A stretch of DNA of 60,057 nt, the filler included, from Dugesia japonica (lineage: Eukaryota): NCBI GenBank assembly GCA_001938525.1. It is 6 parts of 6 records of this genome, joined end to end, with 100 filler letters (N's around TTAATTAATTAA, not from the genome) between each part and the next. Parts side by side here need not be neighbours in the genome. Positions count along the whole stretch, not along the records: positions 10,541 to 21,196 come from MQRL01591091.1; 5 more parts are not named here. The stretch is one strand, 5' to 3'. Each line of letters starts with the position of its first letter. The stretch's first letter is position 1. Below the pieces are notes generated by a model. That model did not search any database. It had not been told where the DNA came from and worked only from the letters and a program-made list of their open reading frames with translations. A program made the translations under genes and the position numbers. Below are positions 10,215 through 53,229 of the stretch, piece after piece.

Positions 10215-10730
10215 AGCAAATTCCCAACTAAAAAGCCTATAAAAAATATTACCACCTAAAAAGCCTGAAAAATATTACCGTTTAAAAAGCCCAAAAAATT
10301 TTCCNNNNNNNNNNNNNNNNNNNNNNNNNNNNNNACTTTGCCGTCTAATAAGCTTGAAAAATTTTCCCAACTAAATACACAGGAAAATATGTAGCCACTT
10401 AATCCTATTACGTAAATTTTCCCGGAGATGAAATTAATCTNNNNNNNNNNNNNNNNNNNNNNNNNNNNNNNNNNNNNNNNNNNNTTAATTAATTAANNNN
10501 NNNNNNNNNNNNNNNNNNNNNNNNNNNNNNNNNNNNNNNNCTTTTTAGGGTCCTAATTGCACCGATTGGTTTTCTTCTTGATTTTTCTTGTTGGAATATT
10601 TTCTGACGTCCGGGACCAAAGTTATCCGTATAAAACAGATTTTTATCTAATTTTCGTTTATTTTTTGTTTAAAATTATTTAATTTTTTCTGTATTAATTA
10701 ATTATTTTTTATTATTGTTTTCTGGTTGCT
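10215..10730 (-). repeat. Inverted partial copy of the promoter/leader module (copy 1), spanning the linker
   Basis: Reverse complement of 10600-10700 (AAAATCTGTTTTATACGGATAACTTTGGTCCCGGACGTCAGAA) aligns with ~13950-13995 (AAAATATGTTTTATGCAAATAACTTTGCTTCGGAACATCACAGAA). Reverse complement of 10360-10440 aligns with ~14400-14500. Confidence 0.6.
10441..10540. other. Assembly linker (44N + TTAATTAATTAA + 44N)
   Basis: The same 100-bp spacer, with stops in all six frames, occurs five times. Confidence 0.97.
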
Positions 10731-10924
10731 TCCTTCAAAATTATTAATAATTTTAATTGTTGATCAATAATGGGTTCATTTCTTCTACACCTTCTTCATT
10801 GCATGTTCATTTCTTTTTATTATCACCTTTAGATACTTTATCTCTTTTCTTGATTTATTTTCTACTTTAGTGGGTGTTCCACCCCAACAATATAACCAGA
10901 ACAATAATGTAAATTTTGTAAATA

Positions 10925-12120
10925 ATGGAATTCGATTTGGACTTATCAATAAACGTAGCCAGAATTATAATGAATGACCCAGACATTGAATTATTCGGTA
11001 TGAGCAAAGGTCGAGAAGAAATCAAGTAAACCCCAGTAACAAAAAACATAATGCACTACCGTAACATATTTGCAGCACCAGAAAATTTCATAAGTAAAAG
11101 GGTGTGTTACAGCACAATGAAAGTGTTTGATGAGAAGTACAGGGATGAAAATGCAAGAAAGCAATCGTTATTCCAACTACCTAAATATTTATACGGTCTC
11201 ATTGAAGCCCTAGCCAAATCAGGATTTTACTACGTCGGTACCCAAGAACGACCAGATAGAGTAAAATGTATATATTTTCAAGGCATCCTACACAAATGGG
11301 GCATGAATGAGCAACTCAATAAAGCACACAGGAAATGGTTTCCTACCAGTCCATTCTTGCTAAATGTAAATGTAAACAACAAATCCCAACTAACTAAAGG
11401 AAGAAAATCCAAAACCGAGAAAACTACCATGGAACCAAAGCGGATATACTGTAAAATCATAAAGAACTTAGCAGAAGTTGCCCTGCTAGAAGATCTGGAA
11501 TGGAATATCGAAGAAAGAGAAAAAACGTTCAAAGAATCACCAAATCTGAAAGAAAAGCCCTGGATGGATTATACTTTGTCCAACAAACCAGAAATAAAAT
11601 TATCAAATGCACCAATTGCAAACGAGAAACTCTATTACTGCAGGGAATAGAGAAATTACCAAAGAAAATATTTCATCAACCAAATGGTTCAAGATTAACA
11701 CCAATTTACGAGGAAGAAATACAAACCACAGCATGTAGAATCGAGTGGAATATGTCGAGTAACAGAATAGAAATGGCAATTGAATTACAGACTAACCGAC
11801 TGTCTAATATCTTAAAGTTAAATAGGATGAATATCAAACAGTTAATAAACCAAACGGTCACAGAAAAAGGGTCTGAACTAGTCACACCATATGAGTTATA
11901 TCAAAGATCACTCAAATCAGTAAAACCACAGGTAAAATATGAGCGGGAATGGGTGTTGCTAGATCATGATTGCGTTATCTGCCTTTTAGAAACCATCGAG
12001 GTCGTATTTCTGCCATGTGGACATTTTAAAACATGCTATAATTGTGCTATAAACTTAAATGAATGCCCTATGTGTCGAAAGTTAATTGAACGAAGAACAC
12101 TAGGAATAAAATTTCAATAA
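10925..12120 (+). pseudogene. Intronless IAP-like gene, BIR-(degenerate BIR)-RING, with one early stop and one frameshift
   Basis: BIR1: RKQSL..LP.....LAKSGFYYVG....DRVKCIYF..ILHKW.......AHRKWFPTSPF (two Cys lost). BIR2 remnant: REKTF..LDGLYFV..IKCTNC..H. Intact C3HC4 RING: CVICLLETIEVVFLPCGHFKTCYNCAINLNECPMCR. AATAAA at the stop. Confidence 0.88.
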
Positions 12121-12217
12121 TAAATAAAGTTAGATATGTAAATCATGTATGATTATATATACTTATATTTGTCAACATATTATTATAATAAAATAATTAC
12201 TCTCTCTGATTTTAGAA

Positions 12218-13371
12218 ATGAACGTGGAAAACCTAATAAACCATCTCCGCAATGAGATTCAATTCTTACAAATACAAACTCAAACCCTCACAACCGTACC
12301 AGATGTCCTAAAATGGAAATTGGAATCCAAAATCGATGCCTTTTCCAATTTACAATTGCAAAAATATATTAGCGAATTGGAGAGCCAAATAGAAAAAGCA
12401 CGTCACGAATTNGAAATAAAAAAGCGATCGTGCAAAACCCACCAAAAATACATAAAAAGCAATATCGACGCCAATAGAGCGAAAATAAATGCTATCAAAC
12501 AAGCCCAAAGCTGGAAGAGTAAATATGAGGAAGTCGAACATAAAATAAAGTTACTCGAGAATCAACTAATAGTCGAACAAGAAAATAACCACAGTTTTAG
12601 AATGGAACTGTTTAACACGCAGTTTGAAAAAAATTATCTGGTTACCGAAAATCAATTCCTAACCAGTCTAGCCAATCGAGAAAGGGTACAAGCTGATATC
12701 CATAAATTGTCCTTGGAATTCGAGAGCATAATGCAAGATTACCAGCAAAAGAATGAATTTTTACAGCAATACATCGAAGCCCTAGAGCAGGAAATCATTG
12801 AAATGCGAAACCTCTACCATGGAAAAGAAGATAAGATGAAACAAAAACAACAACAGTTAGTCGAGCAATTTGCCACCATTAAGGAACTACAGCAAGCGCA
12901 CACAGCTCGCAACCAATCTTTCATCCATTAGTACTACCGATCCTACCACACCTAAGGAATCTAATCATTCTTAATCCACCCAAATCAACACTAAACCCTG
13001 ACGCTCCAGAATGGCAACCAATAATCTCCAGTCTACTAAGACAATACACACCGTTAATAATCCAGGAACCCACGTCAGCTCCAGTTAAATCTAGAATACC
13101 AGAATCGATAAACAAAATAATTGATCAGGTCCCGCACATAATTTCAGCACCTACTCAACCCAGAAAGTCAGTACCTTTAGTGATACAAGAAACCCAAAGT
13201 AAACAACTCGGTTCTGCAACACCCAGCCGGATACACAGTAGAACCTCAGTGTGGAATCATAACCAATTTAAGAGAAACCTGTCCCAGTCAATCGTAACGG
13301 AAATATTACGAAAATTTGGTTCCGAAATACGAGCTAGTGACCTGGACGGTCTAGTAGAGGAAGTCGATTAG
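12218..13371 (+). pseudogene. Coiled-coil protein with Pro-rich tail, PAM2 motif and C-terminal EEVD (one frameshift between ~12883 and 12928)
   Basis: TTTTAG-AA-ATG start; 237 aa of heptad-rich sequence. The alternative frame is open 12883-13371, contains KSTLNPDAPEWQP and ends GLVEEVD*. AATAAA at 13392. Confidence 0.75.
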
Positions 13372-13599
13372 AACAAGTTGAGCGCGATGTAAATAAACTG
13401 TAATTAATCCATCGGACATCAATGAAGGGAATGAACTGTAAACTTTAATGTATATTGTATTTGAATGTATAACGTAGAAATTTTTATGTATGTGTTATGA
13501 GATAGCATGTAATGACCTTAAAATTCACCTTGCTCTGTCAGTTTTATTGGGGATAGAGGAGTTTCTGCAACGGGGACGAACTGTGACAAATTCCGGGAC

Positions 13600-14535
13600 G
13601 GAATTTAAACAAGTCGGAGAGCGATTTGTTGGGGTGGAACACCAGGACAAAGAGAACTAAGACCACGGGGGTCATCAAATACAAGTTATGGGAAAGGAAG
13701 TAAATTACGCAAAATGATTAAACGAAAAAGAAAAACCGGCACAACCATCGGATAGAATGATAAACCCAAAGTTTAAATAAACCATATAAAGGAAGCCGAT
13801 ATAATAAATTCGAACAATCCAATCGAAGTCATCCAATTAAGAAAATTATCGAGTTATTATTTGGATGAATGAGAAGATTAGTTAACAAACGATTTAATTA
13901 TCAAGAAAAAAATTAATTAATTTAATTTAAAAATAAAGAAAAATGATGTCAAAATATGTTTTATGCAAATAACTTTGCTTCGGAACATCACAGAACGACG
14001 GTGCAAGAAAATTCCAGAAGAGAAAAACAAGGGTCATTAAGAATTATCTGGAGAAAAAACTTACCATCATCCGGAAAGGTACTGTAGGGTTTCCAAGATC
14101 GAACCAATCAGATACCTAAAAATAAAAATAAAACAAAGAAGGAACCATCACATGGCCCTCTAAAAATACCTACCAATCAGAATTCCAAAACTCTACAAAA
14201 AATTCTAGAATAACAGCACCAACACCAATAAAATTCTAGAATTCTAAAACAAAAATACCTACCAATGAGAACGGTGCTGGGTTGTATCAAAAAATCATAT
14301 AAAAAGACCCCTGAACTTAACAGAAAAACACACAAAAATTTGAATATTGTAACTGCTACAGCAGCATTATATTATAAAGAAAAATTTTCATAGGAAACGT
14401 TAGTGAATTCTCATCGCAAATATAATTCCGGGAGAATATTCAATAATTTACGAAGCAGTCCAGAAAAGGAAATCGTAGCAAAATTTTAGTTGGAAAAGTC
14501 CCTTGCAGAAAATTCTATTAATTTTAATAGTAAGT
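13600..14535 (+). promoter_or_regulatory. Promoter/leader module (copy 2): CCAAT cluster, TATA box, candidate leader exon ending at a GTAAGT donor
   Basis: CCAAT at 14104, 14173, 14225 and 14262; TATAAAA at 14298; GTAAGT at 14530; TTGTTGGGGTGGAACACC at 13626 shared with 20238. Confidence 0.62.
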
Positions 14536-14736
14536 AATATGTTGGATGTTTTTATTTGTATTTAAATGTAATCTTAAATTAAATTATTAATGTCGAAATA
14601 ATATATGTTGGATATTTATGTTTTTTTATTTTTTGTTATTATCGTGATAAATTACCTCAAAAGAAAGTAATTAATTTATAAGTAGACATTATAGATCAGA
14701 TCCATGTTATGTCTCTTTTGATGTAGCAGAAACCAG

Positions 14737-14883
14737 ATGGGTGTTCATAAAGACGCCTGTCACAGCAAGAAAATGAATGATCAAAAAATACCCATGAAAA
14801 CGTACCAGTTCGCGAGTGCATATTCATTCATCGCTATAAATCAATTTCACCACTCTGTCATTAGGCGGCAAGTATTAAACTAA
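14737..14883 (+). CDS. 48-aa mini-ORF of the cassette, unknown function
   Basis: Pyrimidine tract + TAG/CAG immediately before the ATG; MGVHKDACHSKKMNDQKIPMKTYQF...RRQVLN*. Confidence 0.3.
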   Translation: MGVHKDACHSKKMNDQKIPMKTYQFASAYSFIAINQFHHSVIRRQVLN

Positions 14884-15149
14884 TTACATACAGACTCAGC
14901 AAAAAGAGAGCCCACTAACTAATTAGTTAGATGGTAAAATATCTCGGTTTCTCGTCGTGCCACTCACTGAAAACGCATCACATTGTTAAACACACTAAGA
15001 TGGGCGTGTAGGTAAACCAAGGTCGAATTCGATGTCGTTCCTAAGCGACTGTAAAATGCCACAATTTAAAAGATTATAATTAGCAATAAAATCATTGTAT
15101 CTGAATGAACAATTTTTAAATAACTTCTCATTATAGGAGTCTATTGGTT

Positions 15150-15321
15150 GCTTCATTGATATTATTATTATTATTATCACTATTGTTAGTATTATTATTA
15201 CTATTATCATTAACATCACGACTATTACTATTATTATTATTAGTATTTTATGGTTATTATCTTTGTGACGATCGTTATTATTATTAGTATTATTAATATA
15301 ATCATTAATATTATTAATATT

Positions 15322-15382
<61 letters not shown>

Positions 15383-15700
15383 NNNNNNNNNNNNNNNNNN
15401 NNNNNNNNNNNNNNNNNNNNNNNNNNNNNNNNNNNNNNNNNNNNNNNNNNNNNNTTATTATCGTTAATATCTTTATTATTATTCGCACCATTATATTCAC
15501 AATTATTATGATCATTTTAATTATCTGTCCAATTGCTAATGACCATATTATCGATATTATTATTAAAATACGTATCACTATTATTGGTAGTAGTAATCGA
15601 TGAGTTATTACGTTAAATATCAATGTCCAGCCGATTAATAATAGTCCGAAGTCATGCGGATCATCATATATATACTTTTTGTGAATCGGCATGTATTAAT
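15150..15700. repeat. (ATT)n microsatellite with degenerate flanks
   Basis: Pure ATT core at ~15325-15382 running into a gap; degenerate triplets on both sides. Confidence 0.92.
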
Positions 15701-16027
15701 AAAAGTAATAGTAATTCGGTATTGTTATCCTCCCTCTCAATTTTGGAGTGTTATCCACATTAAAATTATAGCCTGAATTTACTGTTACGGTTACATTAAC
15801 ATTCTGGTGGCGTGTAGCATCAGTAACGTTAACTGTGGTATGTTTTATCAGGATTCTGCACGTGGGTCAATTACCCATGAACAGCGATGAATTTACATAG
15901 GCCATTTCAGAGAGCAAGGGTAGAGACTCCCCACTAGTATTACCTGAAAGTAATGCCGATCCGGTTTTTCTTAAGGAACTAAATCATTAGAGATGTTGTT
16001 AAAGTATGCTCTTCTTACATTTAGCTT

Positions 16028-16210
16028 ATGCCCGTCAAATTGTGTCGGATCCTGCGAAAGATAGAACGACAGAGACGAGCTGTTCGTAGAAAACAGTTGA
16101 TAGCTCACATAATAACCCATGAAAAAATAGAGCATCCGGATGAAACGGACCTGTGCTGTTTTGCCGAGAAGTTCCCCATGGACGGGAAGGTAGATTTAGA
16201 CGAGGAGTAA
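16028..16210 (+). CDS. 60-aa mini-protein, family A (paralogue of 22891-23076)
   Basis: CATTTAG-CTT-ATG start; gapless 24/60 identity with the ORF at 22891 (RKQLIxH, PDExDLxCFxExFP, VDxD). Confidence 0.75.
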   Translation: MPVKLCRILRKIERQRRAVRRKQLIAHIITHEKIEHPDETDLCCFAEKFPMDGKVDLDEE

Positions 16211-16351
16211 TTACTTTCCTTAGTGTAACGGGTATCTGTGTGTTTAAATATACCAGGAAATGAAATTTTGTAGTTTTTATTTTTATAATTCGTCTATTAT
16301 GTCTTAATGTGGTGTAATCTAAACTTTACTAGCCCTATTCTGTTCTTAGGT

Positions 16352-16708
16352 ATGGACTCTATATGGATACGTGTCATCGATAGGTGAACCCGTCGACTAA
16401 CTCTGCGTCGATATCACAACCCGCATAATCAGGATGCCGGTATCTTAGTTTACGGGTCAAATTTACCACCGGTCGAATCAATCGTTGCCCGCATTAATGA
16501 TTTTGGAGAACGGCAGCGATACCAGGCGTGGACGGGCCTGGATCGCACTTTAGCAACTTCATTTTCATACCAACCTACCACTCTCGCCCCAGCTCCTGCG
16601 ATACAAGCGTTCATCGCTAATCTTCTCTGGAGAGTCCGAGAGCCGAATGGTGTAGCTGATGCGGAAAACACTGCCCTCAACGCCGACAATAATAATAATC
16701 CTTCTTAA
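16352..16708 (+). pseudogene. 118-codon mini-gene with one internal TGA (not in the ORF track)
   Basis: TTCTTAG-GT-ATG; MDSIWIRVIDR*TRRLTLRRYHNPHNQDAGILVYGSNLPPVESIVARINDFGERQRYQAW...NNNNPS*; GC-richer than flanks; AATAAA at 16730. Confidence 0.62.
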
Positions 16709-17022
16709 ACTGTTTGGTTATTTGTTAGAAATAAATAAGTGTTTCATTTGTGACTATTTCTAAATTTTCTTGTAAATCGGATTTCTAGTGATCGTGATTT
16801 AATTTTGACTTTAGTATTTTTTTGCGGTATTATTTGTAACGGGATTGGTCTTATCGATTTTATTTAATAATATTGCTAGTCAAGACCACCCAACTTTTCT
16901 AATAATAGTTAACATTGAGTAAAGTGTAACACCTTAAACATGTTTATATTTCAGTGCATTCGACTTTAAATAGGTTCCAGGTCCCGACTAAAAAATGACG
17001 AGAAGATAATGATGACAAGGAG

Positions 17023-17313
17023 ATGACTTGGGATCTTTATAAACTAGCTAAGAGGCGATGGGAAGCAGAGATCGCCGCGGCCGACGCTAAAGTAAAACGC
17101 TACAAGCGAAAATGTTTAACTTTTAAAGCCNAAATGGACGCCACCCAGAAACAAGAGAGGGTGTGGAAGTCCCAGGTTGAAACATTTACCAAGATGGTCC
17201 ATTCTTATCAGGAGCGGGAGAATAATTTGATGGAAAATATATTGAAGCTGAGAGCAGCGACACCTTTGGCCCCTCTCTTGATAGATAAGGGCACTCAGAC
17301 CAACCGCTCCTGA
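17023..17313 (+). CDS. 96-aa coiled-coil mini-protein ending in an LC8-binding motif (DKGTQT)
   Basis: ORF track; acceptor TTTCAG at 16954; AATAAA at 17342. Confidence 0.65.
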   Translation: MTWDLYKLAKRRWEAEIAAADAKVKRYKRKCLTFKAXMDATQKQERVWKSQVETFTKMVHSYQERENNLMENILKLRAATPLAPLLIDKGTQTNRS

Positions 17314-17416
17314 GTGTTATGTTTACTAATTATTTGAGTTTAATAAACTATTTAATTGTCTTTTATAATTATGAACTTGAGTTTTCGTCAGTTTACTTGT
17401 ATTTTGTTTTCATTCA

Positions 17417-17800
17417 GTGCCACGAATTAACTTTCCCAATAGTATCCGGAGATGCCATAGAATTATGCGCCGCTTACTAGTCGAACGACACCTAAAACGT
17501 AAGACAGATAGGGCACTTATGAAACATTTAGACCAACGGGATCAGCTGATTAAAAAATTAGATTTAATTATAAAAAAGCAAAATGACCTGGCGGTTCAAA
17601 CTTAAGCTTTGGAAACCGAAACCAAACAGCTGTTGCTACGGAAAATCGAGTTCATAAAGCAATACATTGCTGATCTGTCTCGTCGAATAGGCAACCCATC
17701 TGTAACCCAAGAGGATGACGATGAAGACATAGCAGCTTTCAACTTTGTGGTAACAGAGCCCAACCAGTGGCTAGATCCAGAGGCACTGGATTTACTTTAA
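17417..17800 (+). pseudogene. ~127-codon mini-gene (basic / coiled-coil / acidic tail) with one internal TAA
   Basis: ORFs 17417-17605 and 17609-17800 are in frame; acceptor TTCATTCAG at the start; AATAAA at 17812. Confidence 0.62.
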
Positions 17801-18486
17801 TATTTTCAAAAAATAAATTTATGAAATCAAATTTGTAACTCCTTTCTTTCGATAGTAACGATAGGGAAACCATTGAACCCAAATATAAAGGTTTATCGGT
17901 GCGTACCTTCCATTGAGAGTAAGGTCAACCACCATGAACTGAAAGCCTACCTCGGGGACGGTAGGATAAATTCTTGAAAGGGTTCCCCTGAGGGCTGTTT
18001 TTTCCCCAGTCACCTTTTCTTGTCACTCGACTCAGGTGGGACCCCAACAGTATTATACATTGGAGTGTTAACTTGAGTTTCTTCAGGTAATGATTATTTC
18101 ATTAAGTGAATTATCACATTTAATAAGCAACTTGGAAATGTGTCGAGAAAGAATCATGCTTAATAATATGGACTCACAACTAAGGTTTAATAATGATAAA
18201 AATAACTGATTCTAAAATCTCAAAAATGAATTAACGCGACTTAAATGTAATAAAGTAGCGAAATAAGAGTCAATATTTGAGAGTCCCTGAGTACAATAGA
18301 GTATGAAGCACTCACAGCAAAGTCTCAACTCCTTGCTCGTATAGATTAAAAATCATAAAATTCATAAACTTGGATTTTCATAATGTACAAAAGTAATGAC
18401 TGATTTATTATAAAAATACTATTAATTAAGTGTGAACATTTTATTAATAATTAAATAAATAACTTCAATATTGTAAAAATTTAGAA

Positions 18487-18930
18487 ATGGTTAAAAATAT
18501 CTCGTTAACAGAAACTGTGAAATCATTGAACGGGTGGAACTTCACTGCACCGCCACCATATAATAGACCAGTACTCTACAATTCCTGGAGTGATGTGATG
18601 ATATAGACCCTTGGTGGATGAGGCAAGATAAGTTGCAATTACAAAATCTAAAGACCAGGAACAAGAAATCGCAGAAATGAAAATTTAGTACAAAACCAAA
18701 AAAAGCAGTAAAAACGAAATCAAGCGTTAGCAGATTTGTTTAAGAGTTCTATTAAAGTTTCATAGCATCTTATTAGGCCACCACAACGTACAGAAAAAGG
18801 AACCTTCATTAATCGTGTAGTACAAGAATAAGTAAAGGTTGCGGAGCGCATAGAGGCTCGCATTGAGCAGGTTATGCCGACCTTGATACCATATTTAATA
18901 GAAGATTGCAAAATAATTGTCGAAATCTAG
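18487..18930 (+). pseudogene. Degraded mini-gene containing PPPY
   Basis: TTTAG-AA-ATG; MVKNISLTETVKSLNGWNFTAPPPYNRPVLYNSW... then frameshifts; AATAAA at 18946. Confidence 0.5.
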
Positions 18931-19124
18931 TTTTATTCAAGTGTAAATAAAATTATTATAGTTTAAATGCGTTTTGTGTTAACGTACGATAATTTTAAAG
19001 TTACGAACTAGTAAATAACTATCATAATTATTAATGAAAGTTGACAAATTCTATTTTCTTTTATTATTATAACAATATGTTTTTAAGCTTTCCACATAAA
19101 CATTGTTTAATTTACAAAATTTCA

Positions 19125-19472
19125 ATGAAAATCACCAAGCTATCTCAAGAGAAGTTGTTAACAGAACAATGAAACAGTACGATTGAGTTGAAAAAGATGC
19201 GCAAAGAGATTAATGAATTAAGAAATTCGGTCAGTATCGCTAGATAGAAGATATCAATTCTGTGAGAAAGATTAAGCGTGAGTCGCCAGAAGGAACTCAC
19301 TCTAATCACAAACAACAGGATGCTCGTTGAGATAATCAAACCGTACGCCTACAAGGAGGCCAAACATGAGAACATTATGAAAGGAATATAATGGAAAAAC
19401 GAATAAAGATTCAGACTGTGAGAATACCAAGGAGACTATATTTGGCTCTCAATATATCAAATGTGTAAATAA
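19125..19472 (+). pseudogene. Degraded 115-codon coiled-coil mini-gene
   Basis: One continuous frame MKITKLSQEKLLTEQ*NSTIELKKMRKEINELRNSV... with several stops explicable as single C>T changes; AATAAA overlaps the stop. Confidence 0.45.
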
Positions 19473-20229
19473 ATTTAAAGTCATAACGACCGTATTTTCT
19501 TAGTTTTTAAAATAAATAAATTAATAAATATGAGCAGGAACACCAGTTAACTTTCTTCACAAACGGGATACAGTATAGTCCTGCATAGACCACGGTTTAG
19601 ACTATCGACTCACAAAGTGTCGAAAAGTTTCTNCTGGCTTCGAGGTATCTACTCCTAGAAGAGATAAATCACTGCAAAAAATAAACCAGGCAAAGAAAAA
19701 GAAAACATCAAAATCTTGAAGCCCTACAAAACTTTTGTTTGATAATTGAATTAATGAATTATTGAATATTTTTGTTGGAAGATGTCGGGGTAGAACTTAT
19801 TTACAGATAAAAAGTAAAATTAAACAGAAAAATTAAACAAAGTAGACAAAAGATTGAAAAGAAGAAAGAAAGAAACAAATACATCATTAAAATAGAAGGA
19901 AACGCCACAAGAACAGAGGATAATGAGAATTTATAAGCAAATGAATTATTTAGCGGAAAATTTATTAGGTATAAAAAATAAATAAATTATTATCATATGG
20001 AAATTTACATTCAGAATAAGTTACAAATTAATTAAGAGTAAAGGAACCCGAAATTGAAGAATATAATTTGTTACAAATTAATTATGAGAAAAATGATTTA
20101 ATAACTTAAGAAATCATCCATATACAACAGATTACCAAGCGGAAAATAATTACATTAATAACAAAAATTATTAAACATCAAATCAAATATTTGCCGAATC
20201 AGTCAGAACTAAAATATATAATTATTTTC

Positions 20230-21196
20230 AAACAGAATTGTTGGGGTGAAACACCGGATTAATGCAAAGAGAATTGCGTAAGTAAGCACGAAATTCGAAA
20301 AATCTACATGAGAAAGGAAAATGAAGAAATCAGACCCAAGAAGGGCATAATCTAGTTGGAGAGAAGAATGACGAAAGCCAAAATGAGACTAGAAGACTTA
20401 AACTCGTGAAAAAACTAGAACTACAACAGGAGATAACGACGAAATAAAAAAAACCAACAAAGTAAAGAAGCGGTACTCCAAACAACGAAAATAATAAACG
20501 ATGGCCAAGGAACTGATTCATTAATTGAAAAGGAAATAATGAAAAGGAAAATCAAGATTGGTAACCAGAACCAACGAAATAACCAAAAATCACAGCACGA
20601 AACAATTCAGAAGTAAATAAACCGAAGAAGAAAATGTAATAGAAGCTGTGACAGGACGACAAAAAATCTAATGATTAACCATCAATTCATTAGGCAAAAT
20701 CAAGAAAATCACACCGAATCATACTAGAAGAAAGANNNNNNNNNNNNNNNNNNNNNNNNNNNNNNNNNNNNNNNNNNNNNNNNNNNNNNNNNNNNNNNNN
20801 NNNNNNNNNNNNNNNNNNNNNNNNNNNNNNNNNNNNNNNNNNNNNNNNNNNNNNNNNNNNNNNNNNNNNNNNNNNNNNNNNNNNNNNNNNNNNTTTTAAA
20901 TAAAAAATTAAATTTTCTACAAAAAACTAAGAAAATTAGGACTTCTAGTGGTGCCAAAATTATCAATTTAGAAATTTCTGGTCGAGAAAAATCTGGAGAA
21001 CTCAAAAATCAAACTTAGAAAACCATGGCAAGGAAGAGAAAAAAGTTATAAGGGTTTGAAGGTTGACCAATAGTTTCGAAGTCCAAAAATAACCGCCAAT
21101 GAAAAGAAAGCATGTGACCGTTTGGCCAATAAAAGTGTCGAAAATTTATATTCACCAATGGAATAAACGGGGGTGTAGAAAAAACCGGTATAAATA
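20230..21196 (+). promoter_or_regulatory. Promoter module (copy 3): four CCAAT boxes at 29-30 bp spacing plus TATA
   Basis: CCAAT at 21067, 21096, 21126 and 21155; TATAAATA at 21189; TTGTTGGGGTGAAACACC at 20238 (17/18 identical to 13626). Confidence 0.7.
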
Positions 21197-21296
21197 NNNN
21201 NNNNNNNNNNNNNNNNNNNNNNNNNNNNNNNNNNNNNNNNTTAATTAATTAANNNNNNNNNNNNNNNNNNNNNNNNNNNNNNNNNNNNNNNNNNNN
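21197..21296. other. Assembly linker
   Basis: 44N-TTAATTAATTAA-44N. Confidence 0.97.
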
Positions 21297-21708
21297 CTTG
21301 ATTTATTCATTATGATATTTAAACATAAATAAAAAAGAAAAAATTAAGTAAAAATCACAAATTATCATGTTAAGTTATTATAAAATCCATTGAACTTAAA
21401 TATTGTCCACCGATAATTATCGTCTACTGAGAAATAAGTAGTTGTCTTTGAAATTAGGCATGCCAANNNNNNNNNNNNNNNNNNNNNNNNNNNNNNNNNN
21501 NNNNNNNNNNNNNNNNNNNNNNNNNNNNNNNNNNNNNNNNNNNNNNNNNNNNNNNNNNNNNNNNNNNNNNNNNNNNNNNNNNNNNNNNNNNNNNNNNNNN
21601 NNNNNNNNNNNNNNNNNNNNNNNNNNNNNNNNNNNNNNNNNNNNNNNNNNNNNNNNNNNNNNNNNNNNNNNNNNNNNNNNNNNNNNNNNNNNNNNNNNNN
21701 NNNNNNNN

Positions 21709-22700
21709 GTTATTATTGTTATTCAAACTATGATAATTAATCTCCGTGAATAATAGTATTTCTTCATAATTAATGTAATTGTTGCCATCATTATATTTAA
21801 TTAGTATCATTACTATAATTATATTTATTCCCATTATTATTGCGTTTACTGCTAATAATATATTCCAGTCAATACTTCATTTATGACTATTATTAGTTTC
21901 AGATAAATGTTACCCTTAATTCTACAATCTTTTCATTCTAGGCGATCCATACACCCGATGATTATTATTATTACAAAGGTGAATATTAGAGTCATGATTA
22001 TATTTATGTCTACTAGTGATACCAGTTGAATAGTAATTCCCTACTATTAGTGCCAAGATAGTTATTATTGAAACGATCTTGATATTATGTTCAGTCTATA
22101 ATTAATATTATTTTGAGTATTGGGAATTTAGAATCGATATTATCGACATCATTAACATAATTAATATGATTATAACCAGTAATATTATTATTATTCTTCT
22201 CATTTCTGCGGGTAACCTCATTCTATTATTATTATTTTTACTTATTATTAGTAGGATTCTTATTATTGTTATCACGCCTATTATTATTACTACGTTATTA
22301 TGATTATTCCTATCATGATAATCATTGCAATTGTTATTGATACTGTTTTGTTAGCATTATTATTATTATTACTATTATTATTTTTACTACCAATAGTAAT
22401 AACATTATTATTATTAATCTCGTTACTGTTATAGTATGATTATCATTATTATAATTATGTTTATTATTAATTTCAAGATTACTACCACGGNNNNNNNNNN
22501 NNNNNNNGCTAGTATTCTTATGAATTCAATATTTAATTTTTGTATTATCACCATCAATATTACTATTATTATTGCACATATTATCATATTTATTACAATT
22601 ATTATTATATGTATGAGCATTATGATTATCCCCTATTTAGTTTCTTTCCTTATTAGTATTCGTATTGTTGCTATTAGGACTCCCGTTATTCACTAATGTC
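21709..22700. repeat. Long degenerate (ATT)n tract
   Basis: ATT/TTA/TAT triplet periodicity with many substitutions. Confidence 0.88.
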
Positions 22701-22890
22701 GTGATCTCTATTATGGACGTCGTCTTCACATTTATCTACTCTTAAAAGTACTTAAAATATAAATATTATCAATAACGTACGAAGAGTGTTAAACATAAAA
22801 TAATCGATATCGCTCCCGTTAAGTATGTAACATAAACTACCGGACAATTTTTCGAGTTTAATGGGTTCTGATAATTTTTTCTTTAGGAAA

Positions 22891-23076
22891 ATGTCGAGGA
22901 GTTTAAAAGACACATTAAATTTCATTCGGCCAGAACAGCAACGAACCAGCCGGAAACAGCTAATCGGACATCTCCTCTTTCTGAGTATTATCCCTTCTCC
23001 CGATGAGTTGGATTTACAGTGTTTTGTCGAGATGTTTCCCTTGTCTACCTATGTGGATATCGATCGGAAACTCTAA
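22891..23076 (+). CDS. 61-aa mini-protein, family A (paralogue of 16028-16210)
   Basis: TTTTTCTTTAG-GAAA-ATG start; MSRSLKDTLNFIRPEQQRTSRKQLIGH...PDELDLQCFVEMFP...; AATAAA at 23105. Confidence 0.75.
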   Translation: MSRSLKDTLNFIRPEQQRTSRKQLIGHLLFLSIIPSPDELDLQCFVEMFPLSTYVDIDRKL

Positions 23077-23309
23077 CTTATTCAACCAAATTTTAATTGC
23101 AGTAAATAAATATTTTATGAAATGGCGTTCATTAATTGATAATTGATTTTTGATGTGCTAGGATGTTTAGAGTGCTGGGGCAGGGTAGGGAGGGAGAATT
23201 TGAATTGACCAATCAAAAAAGTGAAGTCATGCTGACCTATCTACCGTATATTTGTTTTAATTAAGTCTAGTTAGCGGGAATTAAAAATTTTTTTTGGCGG
23301 GAAATTTAA

Positions 23310-26010
23310 AAATTCAAAACTACTCAAATAGTTCCTAACAAGCTGTTCAATCAAAGAGCAAAACACACTTTCCACAAGATCAAAGGTGAGCTCACTGAGT
23401 CTAAATACTTACTTCACAGCAGATATATGAAAGCCCTTTGAAAGTATTTCATGAAATTCTTGGATCTACAATTCCAGTCTCAACACCAACTAAAGAGAAT
23501 ATTATCAATTATTTCACTCAGATTCTGCCAGAAAACCTAAATCTAGATAAGTTTAAATTTCTTGATATTTCACTCTATCAACGAAATAAAATTAAATAAA
23601 ATCAAAACTGCTTTCAAAAGCACTTAGAAATCTTCATCCGGGATGAATAGAGTCACTTACTCCGATTGGCTTAAAATTGATCCCAATAACATATTTCTAC
23701 AGGCTCTCTTTAGCAGAATTCTACAGATTAAATATATACTTGATCAATAGAAAACGTTTTATACTAATCTCATCTTGAAACTGGTTAAAGAAAAGGAATC
23801 TCATCAAGTCTCATCTTGAAAATTTATAGCAATTTTGAATACCTCATACCGAATTTTTACAATTGTTATAAAAAACAGAATTCTCAGTTGGATTTCAGTA
23901 GGAAACTCACTCTCACCAACTCTAAATGTGACTTATTTATCAGATGGATGCTCACAACACAATGCTACAATACAATTAATTAGAGAAAAAGCTGAGCGCG
24001 AGAAATGGAATCTTAACCTTACTTGACTTGATCTGGCAGACACCTTTGATAGTACCCCTCAGAAAATACTCTGATTCATGCTTAAACATATTGGATTACA
24101 TCCTGAGACCGTTACTCTTTTTAAGGAGTTATACAAAGACATTTATTGTTCTTACAAATGTCTAGACATAAAAACAAGCGATATCAAAATCATTAAAGGA
24201 GTCAAACAAGGATGTTCTATGTCTATGACGCTTTTTAGCCTGATCATTGATTTCATTATTATAGTAACCTCAAAAGCATTTCCTCTAACTCTTAATGGGT
24301 ACAATGTTACCATTTTAGTTTATTCAGACGATCTTGAACTTATCTCCAATAATTACAATCAGACGAATCATATGATAAACAAAATTGTAAGCTTCACTGA
24401 TACAAGCCGTCTAAAGTTCATACCAAGCAAATGTGGATTCTTCCAACTTAAAACCCAAATAAAATATCAAAATTTACAATAAAGTGATTCAAAAAATTAA
24501 TGATGAAATTCTATACAATTACTTGGGAGTATCATTAGGAGAAGCTAAGAAAAACAACCTTAAAGACATAATCAACAATGCAATAGAAGACTTTGGAAAA
24601 ATCACAGAAAGCAGTCTTCATCCGTCATTAAAAGTCCAAACATAAAAATGTTTATTCATTCAAGATTAATCTATGCTATGAGGAACCGAGACATTTTCTA
24701 TATGAAACTGAACAACCCTCATCACAAAAAGTTTGATGGCAGTACAAGACAATCAGATTATCAAAAGAATTTTTAAGAACATCAATCAAGCTCCAAACAG
24801 CAGTGACAATAATGCCTTTCCTTTCGTTCTATCTAAACGTGGAGGATTAGATTTGTTGCCTTCAATCGATGAGTACTATATTCAAAGTATAGTAAATGCC
24901 TTCCGGATCCTCAATTCTCAAAAGAATTGTTTCAAAGTGTTAACAGCTAGGGAACTTGAGCACAGATTCAGAAACAATAGCACATATTCGATCCAAAAGA
25001 CCTTGATGCATAACAACACTATTCCATCTTAAGATAAAACTAATATTACTGCATCTTTGTGTACCAGAGTAAGGACGTTAATAAAAAGACTTTACGAAAC
25101 TCATAAACTCAAACTGCTCTTCTTTATTGAAGAAAATGAAATAGAGCTGAAAATCACTTGGCTGGATGATTAGAACTTTTTTCTCAATATACTGATCAAA
25201 AACAGCTCAAAATCTTAGTTGTGCAATGTCCTTCATACTAAAATTGAAATGACATATTTCCAAAAATGGAAAAGCCTTTCCACACAAGGTCTTCTAACAA
25301 CATGTTTAGACTCATCAGACTATGCTCAAAATTTTATGAAAAACTTAAACCTTTCTGAAAACGATTACCCATTCATTATTCGAGTAAGAAACAATCTTTT
25401 GAGAACTAACTACAATCCTAACAAACTGAAAAGCAACATACCAATTCATTGCAAAGAATCTGGTACTGAAGCTATAAACTTAAATACACATATTTAACCA
25501 CTGCTCAGCGAGGAGGAATAAACAGTACAATAAACACAATCATGTTAAGGAAAAGATTGTAGCTCAACTTAGAAAATGGAATTTTGATGTAGAAATTGAT
25601 TCATGTTCACAAAGCTTTGCAAAAGCTAGAGAAGATAATAGGAAAAAATATAAGAGCATCAAATTCGAAATTAGCTCAAAGTTCTACAAAAAGGTTACAC
25701 TTAATAATCTTGTCATTGGAACATTAAACTCAAGGAACGCCTTCAATCAAAGGGCTCTCAAACATATTGGTCTAACCTCAAATGAAATAAAGAAAATCTC
25801 GTAAATATCAATCAAAAGAGTAATCAAAGTGAGCTATCATATTTACTTAAATCATATAATCAATGAGGCTAAATTTCCTTCAATTCAAAACTAAATTCTG
25901 TTTAGACTCAAATGTCCAAGAAATTTATCAAATTGAGTTCTTTCTAAATAACCAAATATAATAAAATAAAAATCTATGATCTCGGATTTATTCGAATCAT
26001 TCAAGACTTA
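23310..26010 (+). mobile_element. Degraded RLE-type non-LTR retrotransposon (NeSL/R5/R4-like), 5'-truncated
   Basis: RT motifs DLADTFDSTP, GVKQGCSMSMTLF, VYSDDL, KFIPSKC, YNYLGV; RGGLDL thumb; C-terminal HCK..E...HI..C..HN zinc remnant; KY and LVIGTL of an RLE domain. Confidence 0.85.
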
Positions 26011-26069
26011 TTTAAACTATTCATCCACAAACTGATTTATAAATAAATGTTATTTTCGTTTAAAAAAGT

Positions 26070-26837
26070 GAATAAGCTAATGTTTACTCATTACGCTGAA
26101 GAAAATTATGCATTGCATTGGAAACTGCTACAAATGTACATAAGATTTGAAGTTAAAGTGGTCCATAGAACAGTAAAATTTATATAATCGAAAAAGATAT
26201 TGAAACAAACATTGCATTAAGAGCAGAATGTAATAGTGAGCTTGAGAAAAATTATTACAAACTATTGAAAAAACGTTTGTATGAAAAATCGGTTTAAAAT
26301 CTAAAGAAAAGGATGAACTTGCGATTATGCAATACTAGTAAAAAGCTAGTAACATATGCTTTTAAATCAAGCTTCTGGAAATCCATCAAGATTGACGTGG
26401 ACCTGATTGTTAATTTAATGAATAAGGAGTCAGTATGCATAGATCGTCCAAGCTACATTAGTCAATTGTAATCTATTAGTAAAGATCATCCCCTCTATAG
26501 TAATCAGTGGAACTCTGTTATTGCCAAGTTTAAAGACGAGACTAAGGGGAAGAAGTATATAGAGTGGATATTCTTACGTCTAAAATGTTACTGTTTGTTT
26601 TCTGATATAGAAATCATTAAAGCAAAAAGTGTAACATTGAAGAATAGCAACATCAACCATCAGACATATGTTGACTGCTATAGTAATGTGGAAAATGTTT
26701 TAGTCGATCAATTTATAATTGTNNNNNNNNNNNNNNNNNNNNNNNNNNNNNNNNNNNNNNNNNNNNNNNNNNNNAACAACCATGATAAGAGTTACTGGCT
26801 AGGAAAAAATAAAAGCGTACCTTACGGACATTTTTAA
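26070..26837 (+). pseudogene. Polinton pPolB fragment with internal deletion
   Basis: NYALHWKLLQ, EKNYYKLL, NLKKRMNLRL, CIDRPSYI, HPLYS, KFKDE, FLRLKCY, SVPYGH; paralogous to 2697-3140. Confidence 0.85.
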
Positions 26838-27279
26838 ATAAAATAAAATACTTGTCACCATAAAACATCAAATGATACGGTCTCATGAAGAACAGGAACT
26901 TCAGCAATGGTTACTAATTATTTTTCAAATCATAAATTATTTAATTATTTCTATTTTAGAAAAGAAAAAAAACAATATGTAAATAAATTTTATTCAAATT
27001 AAATTAAAATCTCAAATGTGATCTATTGTCAAGTCCAACAATTATTCCTACATTAATTGTAATTCTATAATTTTTTATTATTTATTTATTATTGAAATGA
27101 TTAAATAAATAATAATTTATAATTTTAATTAAACATTATATTATTTAACTGCTTGAGGAAATATGGAAAACATTAGTTACAATAATATTCATAAACATAG
27201 AAGAAAGCAAAATAGTAAGTATTTGATGTTTAAATATTTATTTATTAAGTAATTTATCAATCTAAAGCAACTTTGCTGG

Positions 27280-27971
27280 TGGTCATGCTTTATTATTATA
27301 TTGTCAAGAAAACGGGAGCAAAACGTACTGATTCACTTGTAGAAATTTATGGTGAATACGCTTTTCCAGCTGCGACATGCAATTTTTTTTGCCGAATTAG
27401 AAATGGCAAATACCAAGGACAAAGAGAATGGAAACCATTAAAACATATTGAAGATAAAATATTTACAATGTTATTGGATAAAGATCTATTTCAAAGACAA
27501 TCTGAATTAGTTACTACAATAAATGCAACCCAATGTTTTTCGTCGCGTCTAAATAGTATGGAATGATTCGAAAATAATGGAATTGAATCACACTTTGATT
27601 AACGTTATAGATAAAGTGAAATGTGAAAAACAATTTATAATGTTTAGAGACCAAAAAGAAACGTTTTTTGCATTGAATTGTTACGGAATATAAAAAAAGA
27701 TATTTAAAGAAAATCCAAAACACAAAGCAACTTAAGTGAAGCCAGGTTAACCCGGTATATCAACGCCAAACCCAAATATCCATGATTCAAAAGTTAAGCT
27801 TTGTATTTGGTGGAAACAGAAAAAGGTCAAATATTATAAACTGCTGAGACCATCGGAGACCATAACTAGTGAATATTATAAATTGCAATTAATTCGACTT
27901 GAAGTGAGCTCTGGCTGACAAAAATACTAGAATGAGAGATTAGACATGCAAGGATAATTTTGCAATATGAT
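27280..27971 (+). mobile_element. Degraded mariner, truncated by a gypsy LTR
   Basis: LVEIYGEYA, FLH*IVT, STPNPNIHDSKVKLCIWW, YKLLRPSETITSEYYKLQL, RHARIILQYD. Confidence 0.82.
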
Positions 27972-28194
27972 TGTTAGAAGTCTGTTTCATTAGCATAATA
28001 TTTATTAAATTACAATCTAAAAAGGAGGAATAAATAAATAAGTAATTATGATTTGAGCAATCAACATACCTCAATTGGTAAACAAACATTGACATGTTAT
28101 GAAACATACAAAATATTTGAACTCATTGTCAAATATTAATTACGCAACATACAGTTTTAATAATGATTTATAATAAATATAAAATATACTAACA
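27972..28194 (-). repeat. 3' LTR (223 bp) of a Ty3/gypsy element with adjacent polypurine tract
   Basis: TGTTAG...CTAACA termini; TCCATCTCTCTTT follows immediately (AAAGAGAGATGGA on the minus strand). Confidence 0.8.
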
Positions 28195-30312
28195 TCCATC
28201 TCTCTTTAAAAGCTCTTAACCACGTTACCATTTTCAAATTTAATGTGATAACCCCTATAATGTCTCTTTTTAATTATTTTTCCCGGGCCTTCATACCTAT
28301 CTTTGTCTTTATTAGTAGCAATATTATTACCAAAATGTTGTCTCCAATTTTAAAATGTATTTTCATAATTCCATGCATGTTATGACTAATTTCATCTTGA
28401 TCAATGAGATTTTCATTCTATTTTCATGTTTCTCTTCTACATTTTCATGAATATTCTTTTCTTGTGAAATTTTATTTCCAAAAACAATTTCCGCTGGGCT
28501 CAATTTTAATGTACTTCGATATGTATAATTTGTCATAAATTTTACTTCAGGGAGTATATCTGTCCAATTTTTATTTGTTTTATTTTGTAATGTTGTATGA
28601 ATTGCATCTCTTAAAGTCCGAAATTGTATTTCGATTTGTCCATTACTAGAATGATATACGGACTTGAGAATTTTAACTCTGTCTATGTTTTTCTGTCAAT
28701 TCTCTAATTTAATTCGATTCAAATGATCTTCTTCTATCACAAGTAATAATTTTAGGGCCCCAAATTTCAAAATCCACTGGTTTTTTAATATAGTTTTTTC
28801 GGTTTCATCAATTACTCATATTAATGAAATATACTTGCTAAATTGATCTGTAATAGCTAATATATATTTTTTACTATTTCTAGCGGTTTTAAACGGTCCA
28901 CAGAAATCAATAGGTATAATTTCATAATTTATCTGTTGGCAACATTTTACTTATGTCTTCTTTTGTTTTTGAAGTTACAGTTTTCCTTTTTTGACATTTT
29001 TTACAGCTTTGTACAGTCTCATATATTATATAAGTTTTATTTTCCATATCAAATTGTGAATTGTATAAACAATATTTTCAATCAATTTAAATTTATAATT
29101 TGTTTCAAAGCTTAAGTTCTCTTTAAAAACATCGAATTTTTTCACTCTTTTTGCCATTTACAACCATCATTTTGTAAAATTAATGCCAATATTTTAGCTT
29201 TTAATTTTTCAGATTTTGGTTCTTTATATATAGTCTGGCATTGGACACACGTTTCACAATTCGTTCTTCAGAGAGCATCTGCATTCAAATGTTCTTCACA
29301 TTTTCTGTATTTCATTTAAATATCCAAAATGATAGGATGGTTGATCCAAGTCTGAAATTGTGGTGTTATTGGTCTTTTAGCCTTCAGCTTTTAGTGATCA
29401 GTTCTTAATCGAAATCTCTGTCCATACAAACAATATTTAAAATGTTCTGTGAAATAAACTATCGCAAAACGTTCTTTTCTGGTAATGCAAAAATAGCCCA
29501 GCTTGTGTTTACTCATGGCTTTGGATCCGTAAGAAATAACTTTTTCTTCTCCATCGTTATCAGTTTGACTTAAAATTGCACCAATTACATCAAAGCTGGC
29601 ATCAGTATCCATTATAAATGCTTTAGAAAAATTTGGAAATGCTAAAACTGGAGCTTCCATTAGTTCAGCTTTCAAATTTTTAAAAGAAATTTTGCACTCA
29701 CTATTGTTTTTTCTTTTATAGGTAGTTTGTGACCCGTGAATGATTTAAATTCTTCTAATAGTCTAGTATTAAAATTTTCTTTTTGTTGTTTATTAAGAAA
29801 TATCTATTTAATTAATGTATATGCTGCTCCCGTATCTATTAATGAAGGTATGTTATATTCATTTACTGATATGATCATAGTAGATCTGGGAGTATCCCCA
29901 TTTATTACATATACCTCATGTGATCTTGGAGATGCGGTATATTTTATCAGTTTTTCGTTTTCAAAATTTGATTTTAATTCGTTGAGTTTATCAGTTTCTA
30001 GTAGATAGGGCTTATTTTCATTATTTCTTGATTCTATGTTCTCATCTCCATTTGATATGTTAATTGTGTATGTTTGATTTTGAGTTTGTCTTTTTAATTT
30101 TCTGATTTTATCATGATATGTTTGCATAATGAAGTGTTTTGCAATAAATGGACATATGCATGCTGCTATTTTTTACTGGAGTACCGGATACTGAGTGTAA
30201 TTGTTTTAATGATATTAGTTGATGGCATGCTAGTTTTAATTAAATAGGTACATGATATAGTAATAGGAAAAATTAGCACCAAGTGCATGTGCATTACCCA
30301 GAAATTTGACAA
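28195..30312 (-). mobile_element. Ty3/gypsy internal region: protease, (RT deleted), RNase H, integrase
   Basis: SLIDTGAAYTLI; APVLAFPNFSKAFIMDTDAS..IGAILSQ...FRLRTDH; IDFCGPF, ITDQFSKY, YHSSNGQIE, YEGPG. Confidence 0.9.
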
Positions 30313-30412
30313 NNNNNNNNNNNNNNNNNNNNNNNNNNNNNNNNNNNNNNNNNNNNTTAATTAATTAANNNNNNNNNNNNNNNNNNNNNNNNNNNNNNNN
30401 NNNNNNNNNNNN
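30313..30412. other. Assembly linker
   Basis: 44N-TTAATTAATTAA-44N. Confidence 0.97.
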
Positions 30413-31700: not shown

Positions 31701-32644
31701 AGTTGCTGGAGTATAAATTAAAATCATCATGCAAGTTGATTAGAAATCACAATGAGAAATTAAAAACCGTAAAAGGAAAAAATGATGTTCGTATGAATAA
31801 ACTTTACAAGACCTAGCGGAGTCCAAGGAGCAAGAAGCTCTTAAAATACGATGTGAAGAGCTAAAAANNNNNNNNNNNNNNNNNNNNNNNNNNNNNNNNN
31901 NNNNNNNNNNNNNNNNNNNNNNNNNNNNNNNNNNNNNNNNNNNNNNNNNNNNNNNNNNNNNNNNNNNNNNNNNNNNNNNNNNNNNNNNNNNNNNNNNNTA
32001 GCAATTTTTACGCAGAATTCACAAAATACACTCGACTTTCTTCCAAAAAATAGAAACAGTAACTAAAATTTTTATTTAATTAAATAAAATAATTAATAAA
32101 ATTAATAAAATTGACTTGATAAATATGAAATAATTATATATAATTTCAGTAAATCAAAAAGTTTCGATCAAAGAGTTTTTTAAAATTTATTGAAACTTTA
32201 AAATTCATTAGTTAAGTCTAACGATTATACCAGCAATAATTGTAATAGTAAAATTATACATCGATATAATATTTATTTATAAGTTTTCTTATTGGTTTTT
32301 GGTACAACGTCGATAGTTATATAAAGAGAAAAATTATGACTATCGTTTTAAAGTGTAACGGAAATTTGGTTAGTAATTAAAAATTTTCCAAAATAATATA
32401 AATAAATTCAACACAGTTGTTTTGATGGTCTTTTGAAATATAGCTTGTAAGAAATACTCAACTTTCAGTATACTATAATTTGAAAACATATTTTTAATTT
32501 TCTAAATTACAAAATACTTTTGTATGTATAAAAATATCAAATAAATAATAATTATCACAAATATATTTATAAGTGATAAGCATAATAATTGAAAAATTTG
32601 TTTATATAATTTGTTTAACTTCATTTTTTCAAATTCAACTANAA

Positions 32645-35955: not shown

Positions 35956-36021
35956 CTTTACAATAAAAAAATTTTAATTTTTCATTTATACTAGTCGATT
36001 TTTGTAATAGTATGATTTTTC

Positions 36022-53166: not shown

Positions 53167-53229
53167 TTTATTTACTAGAATTAAAAAAAAATTAAACAAA
53201 CAAAAATATTCTTATTTATGTTTAGTATT

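What the first reader, a model, noticed from the sequence alone, without database searches (positions are those of the whole stretch)
16028..16210. Conserved 60-aa orphan family with an E1A/E7-like DLxCFxExFP motif (second copy at 22891-23076)
Seen: a gapless alignment with 24/60 identities; both ORFs are intact, share the acceptor-ATG context and sit downstream of an ATT tract, while their flanking DNA is not obviously alignable. This suggests protein-level selection. The conserved PDExDLxCFxExFP resembles adenovirus E1A CR2 (DLTCHEAGFP) and HPV E7 (TDLYCYE), but Glu is one position late for a canonical Rb-binding LxCxE. Rb binding is therefore speculative.
Basis: partly seen in the sequence, partly recalled or inferred. 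Interest (0 to 1): 0.78.

Follow-up and report, generated by a model that had tools for sequence, protein, structure and literature searches.

The report
Tiny gene of abundant genomic parasite
This is a real, unnamed 60-amino-acid gene carried by an abundant mobile element in an animal genome, but its likeness to cancer-virus proteins that bind the Rb tumour suppressor breaks down because relatives lack the key cysteine.

Summary
Both ORFs are real (24 of 60 identical, gapless; synonymous sites saturated). They are not a two-copy host family. They sit on separately assembled pieces joined by an artificial linker. The stretch is a high-copy, diverged repeat: over 2,200 contigs per DNA run, with depth peaking on the motif. 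Copy 1 lies in an array of small acceptor–ORF–AATAAA cassettes beside a frameshifted BIR+RING IAP. That is the accessory region of a decaying mobile element, most likely Burro-like (giant Ty3/gypsy), though no gag/pol is in the piece.

None of 3 full-length members has LxCxE. A third homologue (E 3e-15) and a transcribed relative (5 RNA reads) have Leu instead of Cys. Conservation spans 20 columns over the whole length with helical spacing, as in a small folded helical protein. No family or fold match was found. Best reading: a small nuclear host-modulating accessory protein that binds through an acidic amphipathic helix (inferred; partner unknown). Rb binding could not be tested.

The parts
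16028..16210 (+). ORF A, copy 1: intact 60-aa family member; basic N-half (net +9), acidic C-half (net -8)
   Evidence: homologues
16005..16024 (+). pyrimidine-rich tract ending in AG, 3 nt before the ATG (splice-acceptor-like; splicing not shown)
   Evidence: no RNA joint
16136..16177 (+). codons 37-50, most conserved block (P37 D38 E39 D41 L42 F45 E47 F49 P50 invariant in 3 of 3; C44 not)
   Evidence: depth peak in bin 16144-16217
22891..23076 (+). copy 2: intact 61-aa member on a different assembled piece; acceptor-like AG ends 22886, AATAAA at 23105; followed by a LINE remnant
21197..21296 (.). artificial 100-nt linker (N44-TTAATTAATTAA-N44) separating the two copies; a like linker at 10441-10540 bounds the piece on the left
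11051..12120 (+). single-BIR + RING IAP-like gene, broken by a frameshift (frames overlap 11500-11650), AATAAA at its stop
   Evidence: Pfam BIR E 8e-10, zf-C3HC4_3 E 5e-14
12218..13371 (+). coiled-coil-like ORF 12218-12931 with an overlapping second frame 12883-13371; acceptor before ATG, AATAAA 21 nt after last stop
   Evidence: no significant Pfam hit, no longer homologue
13701..14450 (+). A-rich, CCAAT-repeat, promoter- or LTR-like region; 13701-14042 has an inverted homologue at 10551-10869
   Evidence: score 147 vs shuffle max 82; function inferred
15130..15620 (.). degenerate (ATT)n tract upstream of copy 1; a like tract at 21710-22700 lies upstream of copy 2
16352..16708 (+). ORF B, ~118 codons, acceptor-ATG, premature stop at 16385, AATAAA 22 nt after its end
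   Evidence: depth peaks
16955..17313 (+). ORF C, frame open from acceptor-like TTCAG at 16954, premature stop at 16996, AATAAA +29
17418..17800 (+). ORF D, ~126 codons from acceptor-like TTCAG at 17417, premature stop at 17603, AATAAA +12
18487..18930 (+). ORF E, heavily decayed, acceptor-ATG, PPPY motif, AATAAA +16; more decayed frames follow to ~21190

Best explanation
The ORF is an accessory mini-gene of a high-copy selfish element, most likely a Burro-like giant Ty3/gypsy retroelement (about 50%; another large mobile DNA element or endogenous virus about 35%). SHOWN: coding constraint, high copy number, decay of this copy, an IAP neighbour, and an acceptor-ORF-AATAAA cassette layout. INFERRED: the cassettes are made as separate spliced, polyadenylated mRNAs from a shared promoter. 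The ~7-kDa product is a small helical protein. Its basic N-terminal helix serves nuclear import or nucleic-acid contact. Its acidic amphipathic C-terminal helix (D-L-x-x-F-x-E-x-F-P) and acidic tail dock into a host nuclear regulator, to keep the host cell permissive while the IAP blocks apoptosis. It does not work as a canonical LxCxE Rb ligand. Both window copies are probably dead insertions that are intact by chance. The confidence given is for 'accessory gene of a mobile element, not an LxCxE mimic'; the docking mechanism alone is about 0.35.
For: 2,284 and 2,339 contigs from two DNA runs of two studies lay on 15700-17900, of which 1,838 and 1,824 are under 95% alike. Depth in the motif bin is 12-28 times that of two flank bins just outside the ORF, and ORFs B-D show like peaks. 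68 contigs per run share one difference inside the motif block. A third 60-aa member has no indels. 20 columns are invariant in 3 of 3 and spread from residue 1 to 58, with L5/L9/I12 in helical step. Both AlphaFold models give helices at about 3-31 and 39/42-48 (pLDDT about 60). BIR+RING neighbour; Burro carries BIR, Smc-like motifs and accessory ORFs (PMC6431247 section 7). 7 of 8 hand-picked ORFs have AATAAA within 32 nt of the stop against a background of 0.115. The + strand is A-rich (skew +0.22 to +0.42 in 9 of 10 array segments) like the window's gypsy remnant, and ORFs A-D are 41-49% GC against 23% for the Polinton remnant. Stops in B, C and D are not shared by most other copies. Diverged relatives appear in oligo-dT RNA (43 and 4 reads).
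Against: No gag, protease, RT, integrase or env hit in 90 fragments from 13370-23300, and no LTR pair or target duplication was found, so the element class is not shown. Sense-strand polyA signals after each ORF would cut a full-length retroelement RNA unless the array is antisense to gag-pol; they suit a DNA element better. In Burro1 the BIR motif is described as part of the polyprotein, here it is a separate gene. No RNA read is 90% or more alike to this locus and no splice joint was seen. Copy 1 has no AATAAA for 520 nt after its stop. The models are low-confidence, no partner is known, and the host species was not determined. X1 may be the sample the window came from.
Confidence: 0.72

Rival explanations
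1. E1A/E7-type LxCxE mimic: the peptide binds the Rb B-box cleft and frees E2F.
For: D41-L42 are invariant and the L-to-FP distance equals that of the E1A peptide printed in 10.1101/2021.05.14.444182. Acidic tail. IAP neighbour, as in DNA viruses that pair cell-cycle and anti-apoptosis genes. The Rb pathway regulates planarian stem cells (PMC4494696 passage).
Against: LxCxE in 0 of 3 members. Cys replaced by Leu in P0003 and in a transcribed relative. CK2 site after the motif in 1 of 3. Solved LxCxE ligands bind as coil or strand (PMC9147284); here the segment is modelled as a helix. Two papers hold 'LxCxxE' and neither passage shows Rb binding.
Confidence: 0.04
2. E2F/E1A-CR1-type mimic: the F-x-E-[LM]-F helix binds the Rb A/B groove and displaces E2F.
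For: F45, E47 and F49 are invariant; hydrophobic-x-acid-[LM]-[FY] is present in 2 of 3 (copy 1 has a private Lys at 48). This parallels the E1A and E2F2 groove peptides printed, and it survives the Cys-to-Leu change.
Against: The published CR1 pattern matches 0 of 3. An invariant Pro stands where both groove peptides have Asp. The pattern is a generic amphipathic helix.
Confidence: 0.08
3. Accessory ('Oncoid'-like) gene of a Polinton/adintovirus or other endogenous DNA virus, expressed from an adenovirus-like spliced early unit.
For: Separate polyA signals per ORF. Adintoviruses carry IAP and Oncoid genes (PMC8502044). A Polinton-like capsid/PLA2 remnant lies elsewhere in the window, and a frame I read by eye as PolB-like lies 3 kb after copy 2.
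Against: The Oncoid motifs LxCxE, CR1 and CxxC are each in 0 of 3. The capsid remnant is on another assembled piece and is 23% GC. The PolB-like frames had no Pfam hit and a LINE lies between. No relative in viral contigs for this protein, the RING half of the IAP or ORF B.
Confidence: 0.2
4. Domesticated host micro-protein family under present selection.
For: Both copies are intact while neighbours are broken; relatives occur in polyA RNA.
Against: At the neighbours' rate (5 breaks in 1,075 codons, counted by eye) a 60-codon frame stays intact about 76% of the time. Copy 1's private differences are 3 residue-changing to 1 silent. No RNA read matches this locus at 90% or more.
Confidence: 0.07

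Closest known systems
Burro/GYPSM1 giant gypsy-like LTR elements of Dugesiidae (PMC6431247 section 7)
   Same: High copy number, decayed copies, BIR apoptosis motif, coiled-coil ORF, accessory ORFs, tandem repeats, AT-rich host.
   Different: No gag-env-pol or LTR pair in this 10.7-kb piece; BIR+RING is a separate gene; the review describes no array of ~60-130-codon cassettes. The primary Burro paper and the Repbase entry were not seen.
Adenovirus E1A CR2 / HPV E7 LxCxE motif
   Same: D-L before the motif, F-P seven residues after the Leu as in E1A, acidic tail.
   Different: Glu one position late, Cys not conserved, CK2 site in 1 of 3, no CxxC, motif predicted helical inside a length-invariant 60-aa protein.
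Adintovirus/Polinton 'Oncoid' and IAP accessory genes (PMC8502044)
   Same: Small accessory ORF of a genome-integrating element, with an IAP nearby.
   Different: None of the three defining motifs is present; not shown linked to PolB, integrase or capsid.
E2F transactivation / E1A CR1 pocket-groove motif
   Same: Hydrophobic-x-acid-[LM]-Phe core in 2 of 3 members.
   Different: First residue is Phe, the next residue is Pro not Asp, published pattern not matched.

Membership tests
LxCxE Rb-binding viral proteins (E1A CR2, E7) | L-x-C-x-E spacing | tested here: not met
   0 of 3 members
LxCxE Rb-binding viral proteins (E1A CR2, E7) | Cys conserved across homologues | tested here: not met
   Leu in P0003 and in a 5-read RNA loose end (frame, translated by hand)
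LxCxE Rb-binding viral proteins (E1A CR2, E7) | Acidic residue before Leu and acidic tail | tested here: met
   D41 invariant; C-half net charge -8, -4, -5
LxCxE Rb-binding viral proteins (E1A CR2, E7) | CK2 site (S/T-x-x-D/E) after the motif | tested here: not met
   1 of 3
LxCxE Rb-binding viral proteins (E1A CR2, E7) | Motif extended or disordered | tested here: inconclusive
   helix in both models but pLDDT 53-61 there
LxCxE Rb-binding viral proteins (E1A CR2, E7) | Binding to the Rb pocket | not testable with these tools
Adintovirus Oncoid | CR1 pattern (DEN)(LIMV)xx(LM)(FY) or paired CxxC | tested here: not met
   0 of 3 for each (patterns)
Adintovirus Oncoid | Position upstream of PolB in one element | tested here: inconclusive
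   PolB-like frame read by eye beyond a LINE after copy 2; no Pfam hit
Burro giant LTR elements | BIR motif in the element | tested here: met
   same piece, 4-5 kb upstream; that it is the same element is inferred
Burro giant LTR elements | High copy number with decayed copies | tested here: met
Burro giant LTR elements | Smc-like coiled-coil motif | tested here: inconclusive
   coiled-coil-like ORF by eye; no significant Pfam hit, no homologue
Burro giant LTR elements | Gag-Env-PR-RT-RH-IN polyprotein | tested here: inconclusive
   no hit in 90 fragments, but the piece ends at a linker
Burro giant LTR elements | Paired LTRs, total over 30 kb | not testable with these tools
   pieces are 9-11 kb; no whole genome held
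Burro giant LTR elements | Host in Dugesiidae | not tested

The most novel reading that the evidence does not exclude
A giant animal retroelement carries a DNA-tumour-virus-like early region: an array of separately spliced and polyadenylated mini-genes, in which this 60-aa protein is an E2F-type (pocket-groove, not LxCxE) Rb antagonist that drives stem cells into S phase while the neighbouring IAP blocks the resulting apoptosis.
Probability: 0.07. Interest if true: 0.85.

Novelty: new variant of a known kind. Interest (0 to 1): 0.4.

Why it matters
Giant planarian retroelements are suspected of meddling with host apoptosis and ubiquitin systems, but this is untested (PMC6431247). A small accessory protein kept at constant length across lineages with saturated synonymous sites is a tractable handle on that question. 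The cassette array suggests a complex-virus-like expression plan. The headline claim of oncoprotein-like Rb mimicry is not supported, which lowers the interest.

Tried and rejected
No named family: Pfam, PHROGs best E 0.075, NCBIfam 0 of 3, Atlas blank twice. Word-based protein searches found nothing or only P0003; only near-length candidates were searched, so fused forms of this protein were not looked for there. P0004 (copia RT repeats, E 4e-5) is a summed match of 21-residue stretches and was dropped. Locus L001 lies in a frame with stops and was dropped. Phage tblastn best E 0.8. PDB sequence matches: DH-domain HPD segment E 1.6; designed ankyrins match P0003 only through summed stretches of i-E 42 or worse. 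J-domain and bHLH ideas (recalled motifs): HPD in 2 of 3, ERxRR in 1 of 3, rejected. Fold searches: viral best E 1.7, PDB E 9.9, wide search best Z 3.9; the models are weak, so this shows nothing either way. No Rfam match in 10541-24000, no tRNA. No third copy in the window, and ORFs B, C, D and the coiled-coil ORF are not paralogues of A. The test of ATT tracts as an Asn-rich antisense gene was biased by its anchors and is inconclusive. No RNA holder was listed by the index. Five look-ups of earlier findings were empty.

Full report
1. Observation. The ORFs at 16028-16210 (60 aa) and 22891-23076 (61 aa) are present and intact. They align without gaps at 24 of 60 positions; neighbouring offsets give 2-5, and 0 of 100,000 shuffles reach 24. 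DNA identity is 29, 33 and 17 of 60 at codon positions 1, 2 and 3 (chance about 15-17; Fisher p 0.004). Fifteen of the 24 shared residues use different codons, and pS is 0.97 against pN 0.45. The flanks align no better than shuffles. So the likeness is protein-level and old. Each ATG follows a pyrimidine-rich AG by 3-4 nt.

2. The two copies are two loci. The window holds five 100-nt linkers (N44-TTAATTAATTAA-N44) that join pieces of 9-11 kb. Copy 1 is in piece 10541-21196 and copy 2 in 21297-30312. No third copy is in the window.

3. It is a high-copy repeat gene. On 15700-17900, at 80% likeness or more, two DNA runs from two studies laid 2,284 and 2,339 contigs, of which 1,838 and 1,824 are under 95% alike. 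Summed depth in the motif bin 16144-16217 is 6,762 and 5,580, against 548 and 372 just after the stop and 240 and 221 upstream. ORFs B-D show like peaks. Depth is not a copy number, and X1 may be the window's own sample, but 68 contigs per run share one difference in the motif block. Diverged copies thus keep coding parts and lose spacers. Loose ends on both sides of the motif read in frame as related peptides ending at the same stop (frames; translated by hand). Two oligo-dT runs, a quarter of each read, gave 43 and 4 reads, all under 90% alike and all on ORF motifs. Relatives are transcribed at a low level; this locus is not shown to be, and no splice joint was seen.

4. These copies are decaying. 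The IAP is frameshifted, and ORFs B, C and D have stops at 16385, 16996 and 17603 that most other copies do not share. Among the 40 rows shown (513 not shown), four lie in ORF A; three change a residue and one is silent. At the neighbours' rate of 5 breaks in 1,075 codons (counted by eye), a 60-codon frame stays open about 76% of the time. Intactness is therefore no sign of present selection.

5. Surroundings. The piece holds a BIR+RING IAP-like gene, a coiled-coil-like ORF, an A-rich CCAAT-repeat region with an inverted homologue at the piece's left end (score 147 vs shuffle max 82), an ATT tract, and then ORFs A to E and further decayed frames. Seven of 8 hand-picked ORFs have AATAAA within 32 nt of the stop (background 0.115, p about 2e-6, post hoc; copy 1 is the exception). 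Five of the 7 acceptor contexts listed have an ATG within 4 nt of the AG. ORFs C and D open from TTCAG/TGC sites in the same phase without such an ATG. This looks like an array of alternative terminal exons (inferred). Burro elements of planarians are high-copy, carry BIR and Smc-like motifs and accessory ORFs, and have been proposed to be proviruses (PMC6431247, section 7 read whole; its supplements could not be read). That is the best match, but no gag, pol or env was found in 90 of the 107 stop-free fragments of 13370-23300 that I sent (the 17 left out were low-complexity frames or had been scanned whole or in part before). Sense polyA signals would also need the array to be antisense to the genomic RNA. 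A DNA element remains possible.

6. The motif. A profile search of 1.84 billion representatives gave 2 hits; one is a true third member, P0003 (60 aa, E 3e-15; 29 and 28 identities to the copies), and the other was dropped as spurious. P0003 has Leu at the Cys position. So has a 5-read RNA loose end (agreement 0.99), which differs from P0003 at the residue before. LxCxE is in 0 of 3 members, the CR1 pattern in 0 of 3, CxxC in 0 of 3, and a CK2 site after the motif in 1 of 3 (criteria from PMC8502044 passages). What is invariant, though, is a 20-column pattern over residues 1-58, with no indels. AlphaFold gives a long N-terminal helix and a short helix over the motif in both low-confidence models. 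Solved LxCxE ligands bind as coil or strand (PMC9147284 passages). The invariant F-x-E-x-F loosely parallels E2F/CR1 groove peptides but is followed by Pro.

7. How it likely works. Shown: an old, constrained, transcribed accessory ORF family with a basic N-half and acidic C-half. Inferred: its own spliced mRNA, nuclear entry, and docking of the acidic amphipathic helix on a host regulator, helping the element in the cells where it replicates. Odds: mobile-element accessory gene about 0.85; Burro-like about 0.5; host-protein-docking role about 0.35; Rb groove 0.08; LxCxE 0.04.

8. Novelty. No family, fold or cluster name was found. Paper searches for Burro with accessory, BIR, LxCxE, Ty3 or ORF terms and for LxCxxE showed no description of this ORF in listings or in the passages read (also PMC8532177; PMC13238120; PMC12774355; PMC12645940; PMC11410931; 10.1101/2024.03.25.586562; PMC4494696). 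The primary Burro paper was not held, and repeat libraries were not available, so the ORF may already sit unannotated in a known element. The host was not identified. Verdict: a real, apparently unnamed accessory gene in a known kind of element, with an unusual cassette layout; the Rb-mimic headline is not supported. Interest 0.4.

Noticed in passing
window 10441-10540, 21197-21296, 30313-30412, 39911-40010, 49306-49405: Five identical 100-nt linkers with stops in all six frames join 9-11 kb pieces; gene order across them is artificial.
   Followed up: yes
window 11051-12120: Intronless single-BIR + RING IAP-like gene with a frameshift; best solved-structure matches are NAIP/cIAP BIR domains.
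   Followed up: partly
window 16955-17313 and 17418-17800: ORFs C and D start at TTCAG/TGC acceptor-like sites in the same phase without their own ATG; loose ends of other copies stay in frame upstream of C's first Met. Possibly alternative last exons of a shared first exon.
   Followed up: partly
window 15130-15620 and 21710-22700, minus strand: The ATT tracts read as decayed Asn/Asp/Ser/Thr-rich frames head-to-head with both 60-aa ORFs; whether they are coding is unresolved.
   Followed up: partly
window 10551-10869 (-) and 13701-14042 (+): Diverged inverted pair of A-rich promoter-like segments flanking the IAP and coiled-coil ORFs.
   Followed up: partly
window 18487-18606: Decayed ORF E contains PPPY, resembling a WW-binding or viral late-domain motif (label recalled).
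   Followed up: no
window 6822, 9287, 23296: GGCGGGAAA within T-run repeats, resembling E2F sites (label recalled); the last lies 220 nt after copy 2, ahead of the LINE remnant.
   Followed up: no
window 23300-25900 and 26047-26837: Decayed non-LTR retrotransposon (RVT_1), followed by frames that look PolB-like by eye (no Pfam hit).
   Followed up: partly
window 53000-55900 (-): Polinton/adintovirus-like remnant: double-jelly-roll capsid and PLA2-like fragments below Pfam cut-offs, 23% GC.
   Followed up: partly
window 32573-34291 and 35659-35973: Host genes EF1-gamma (with a 141-nt exact duplication across a gap, likely an assembly error) and G-protein beta.
   Followed up: no
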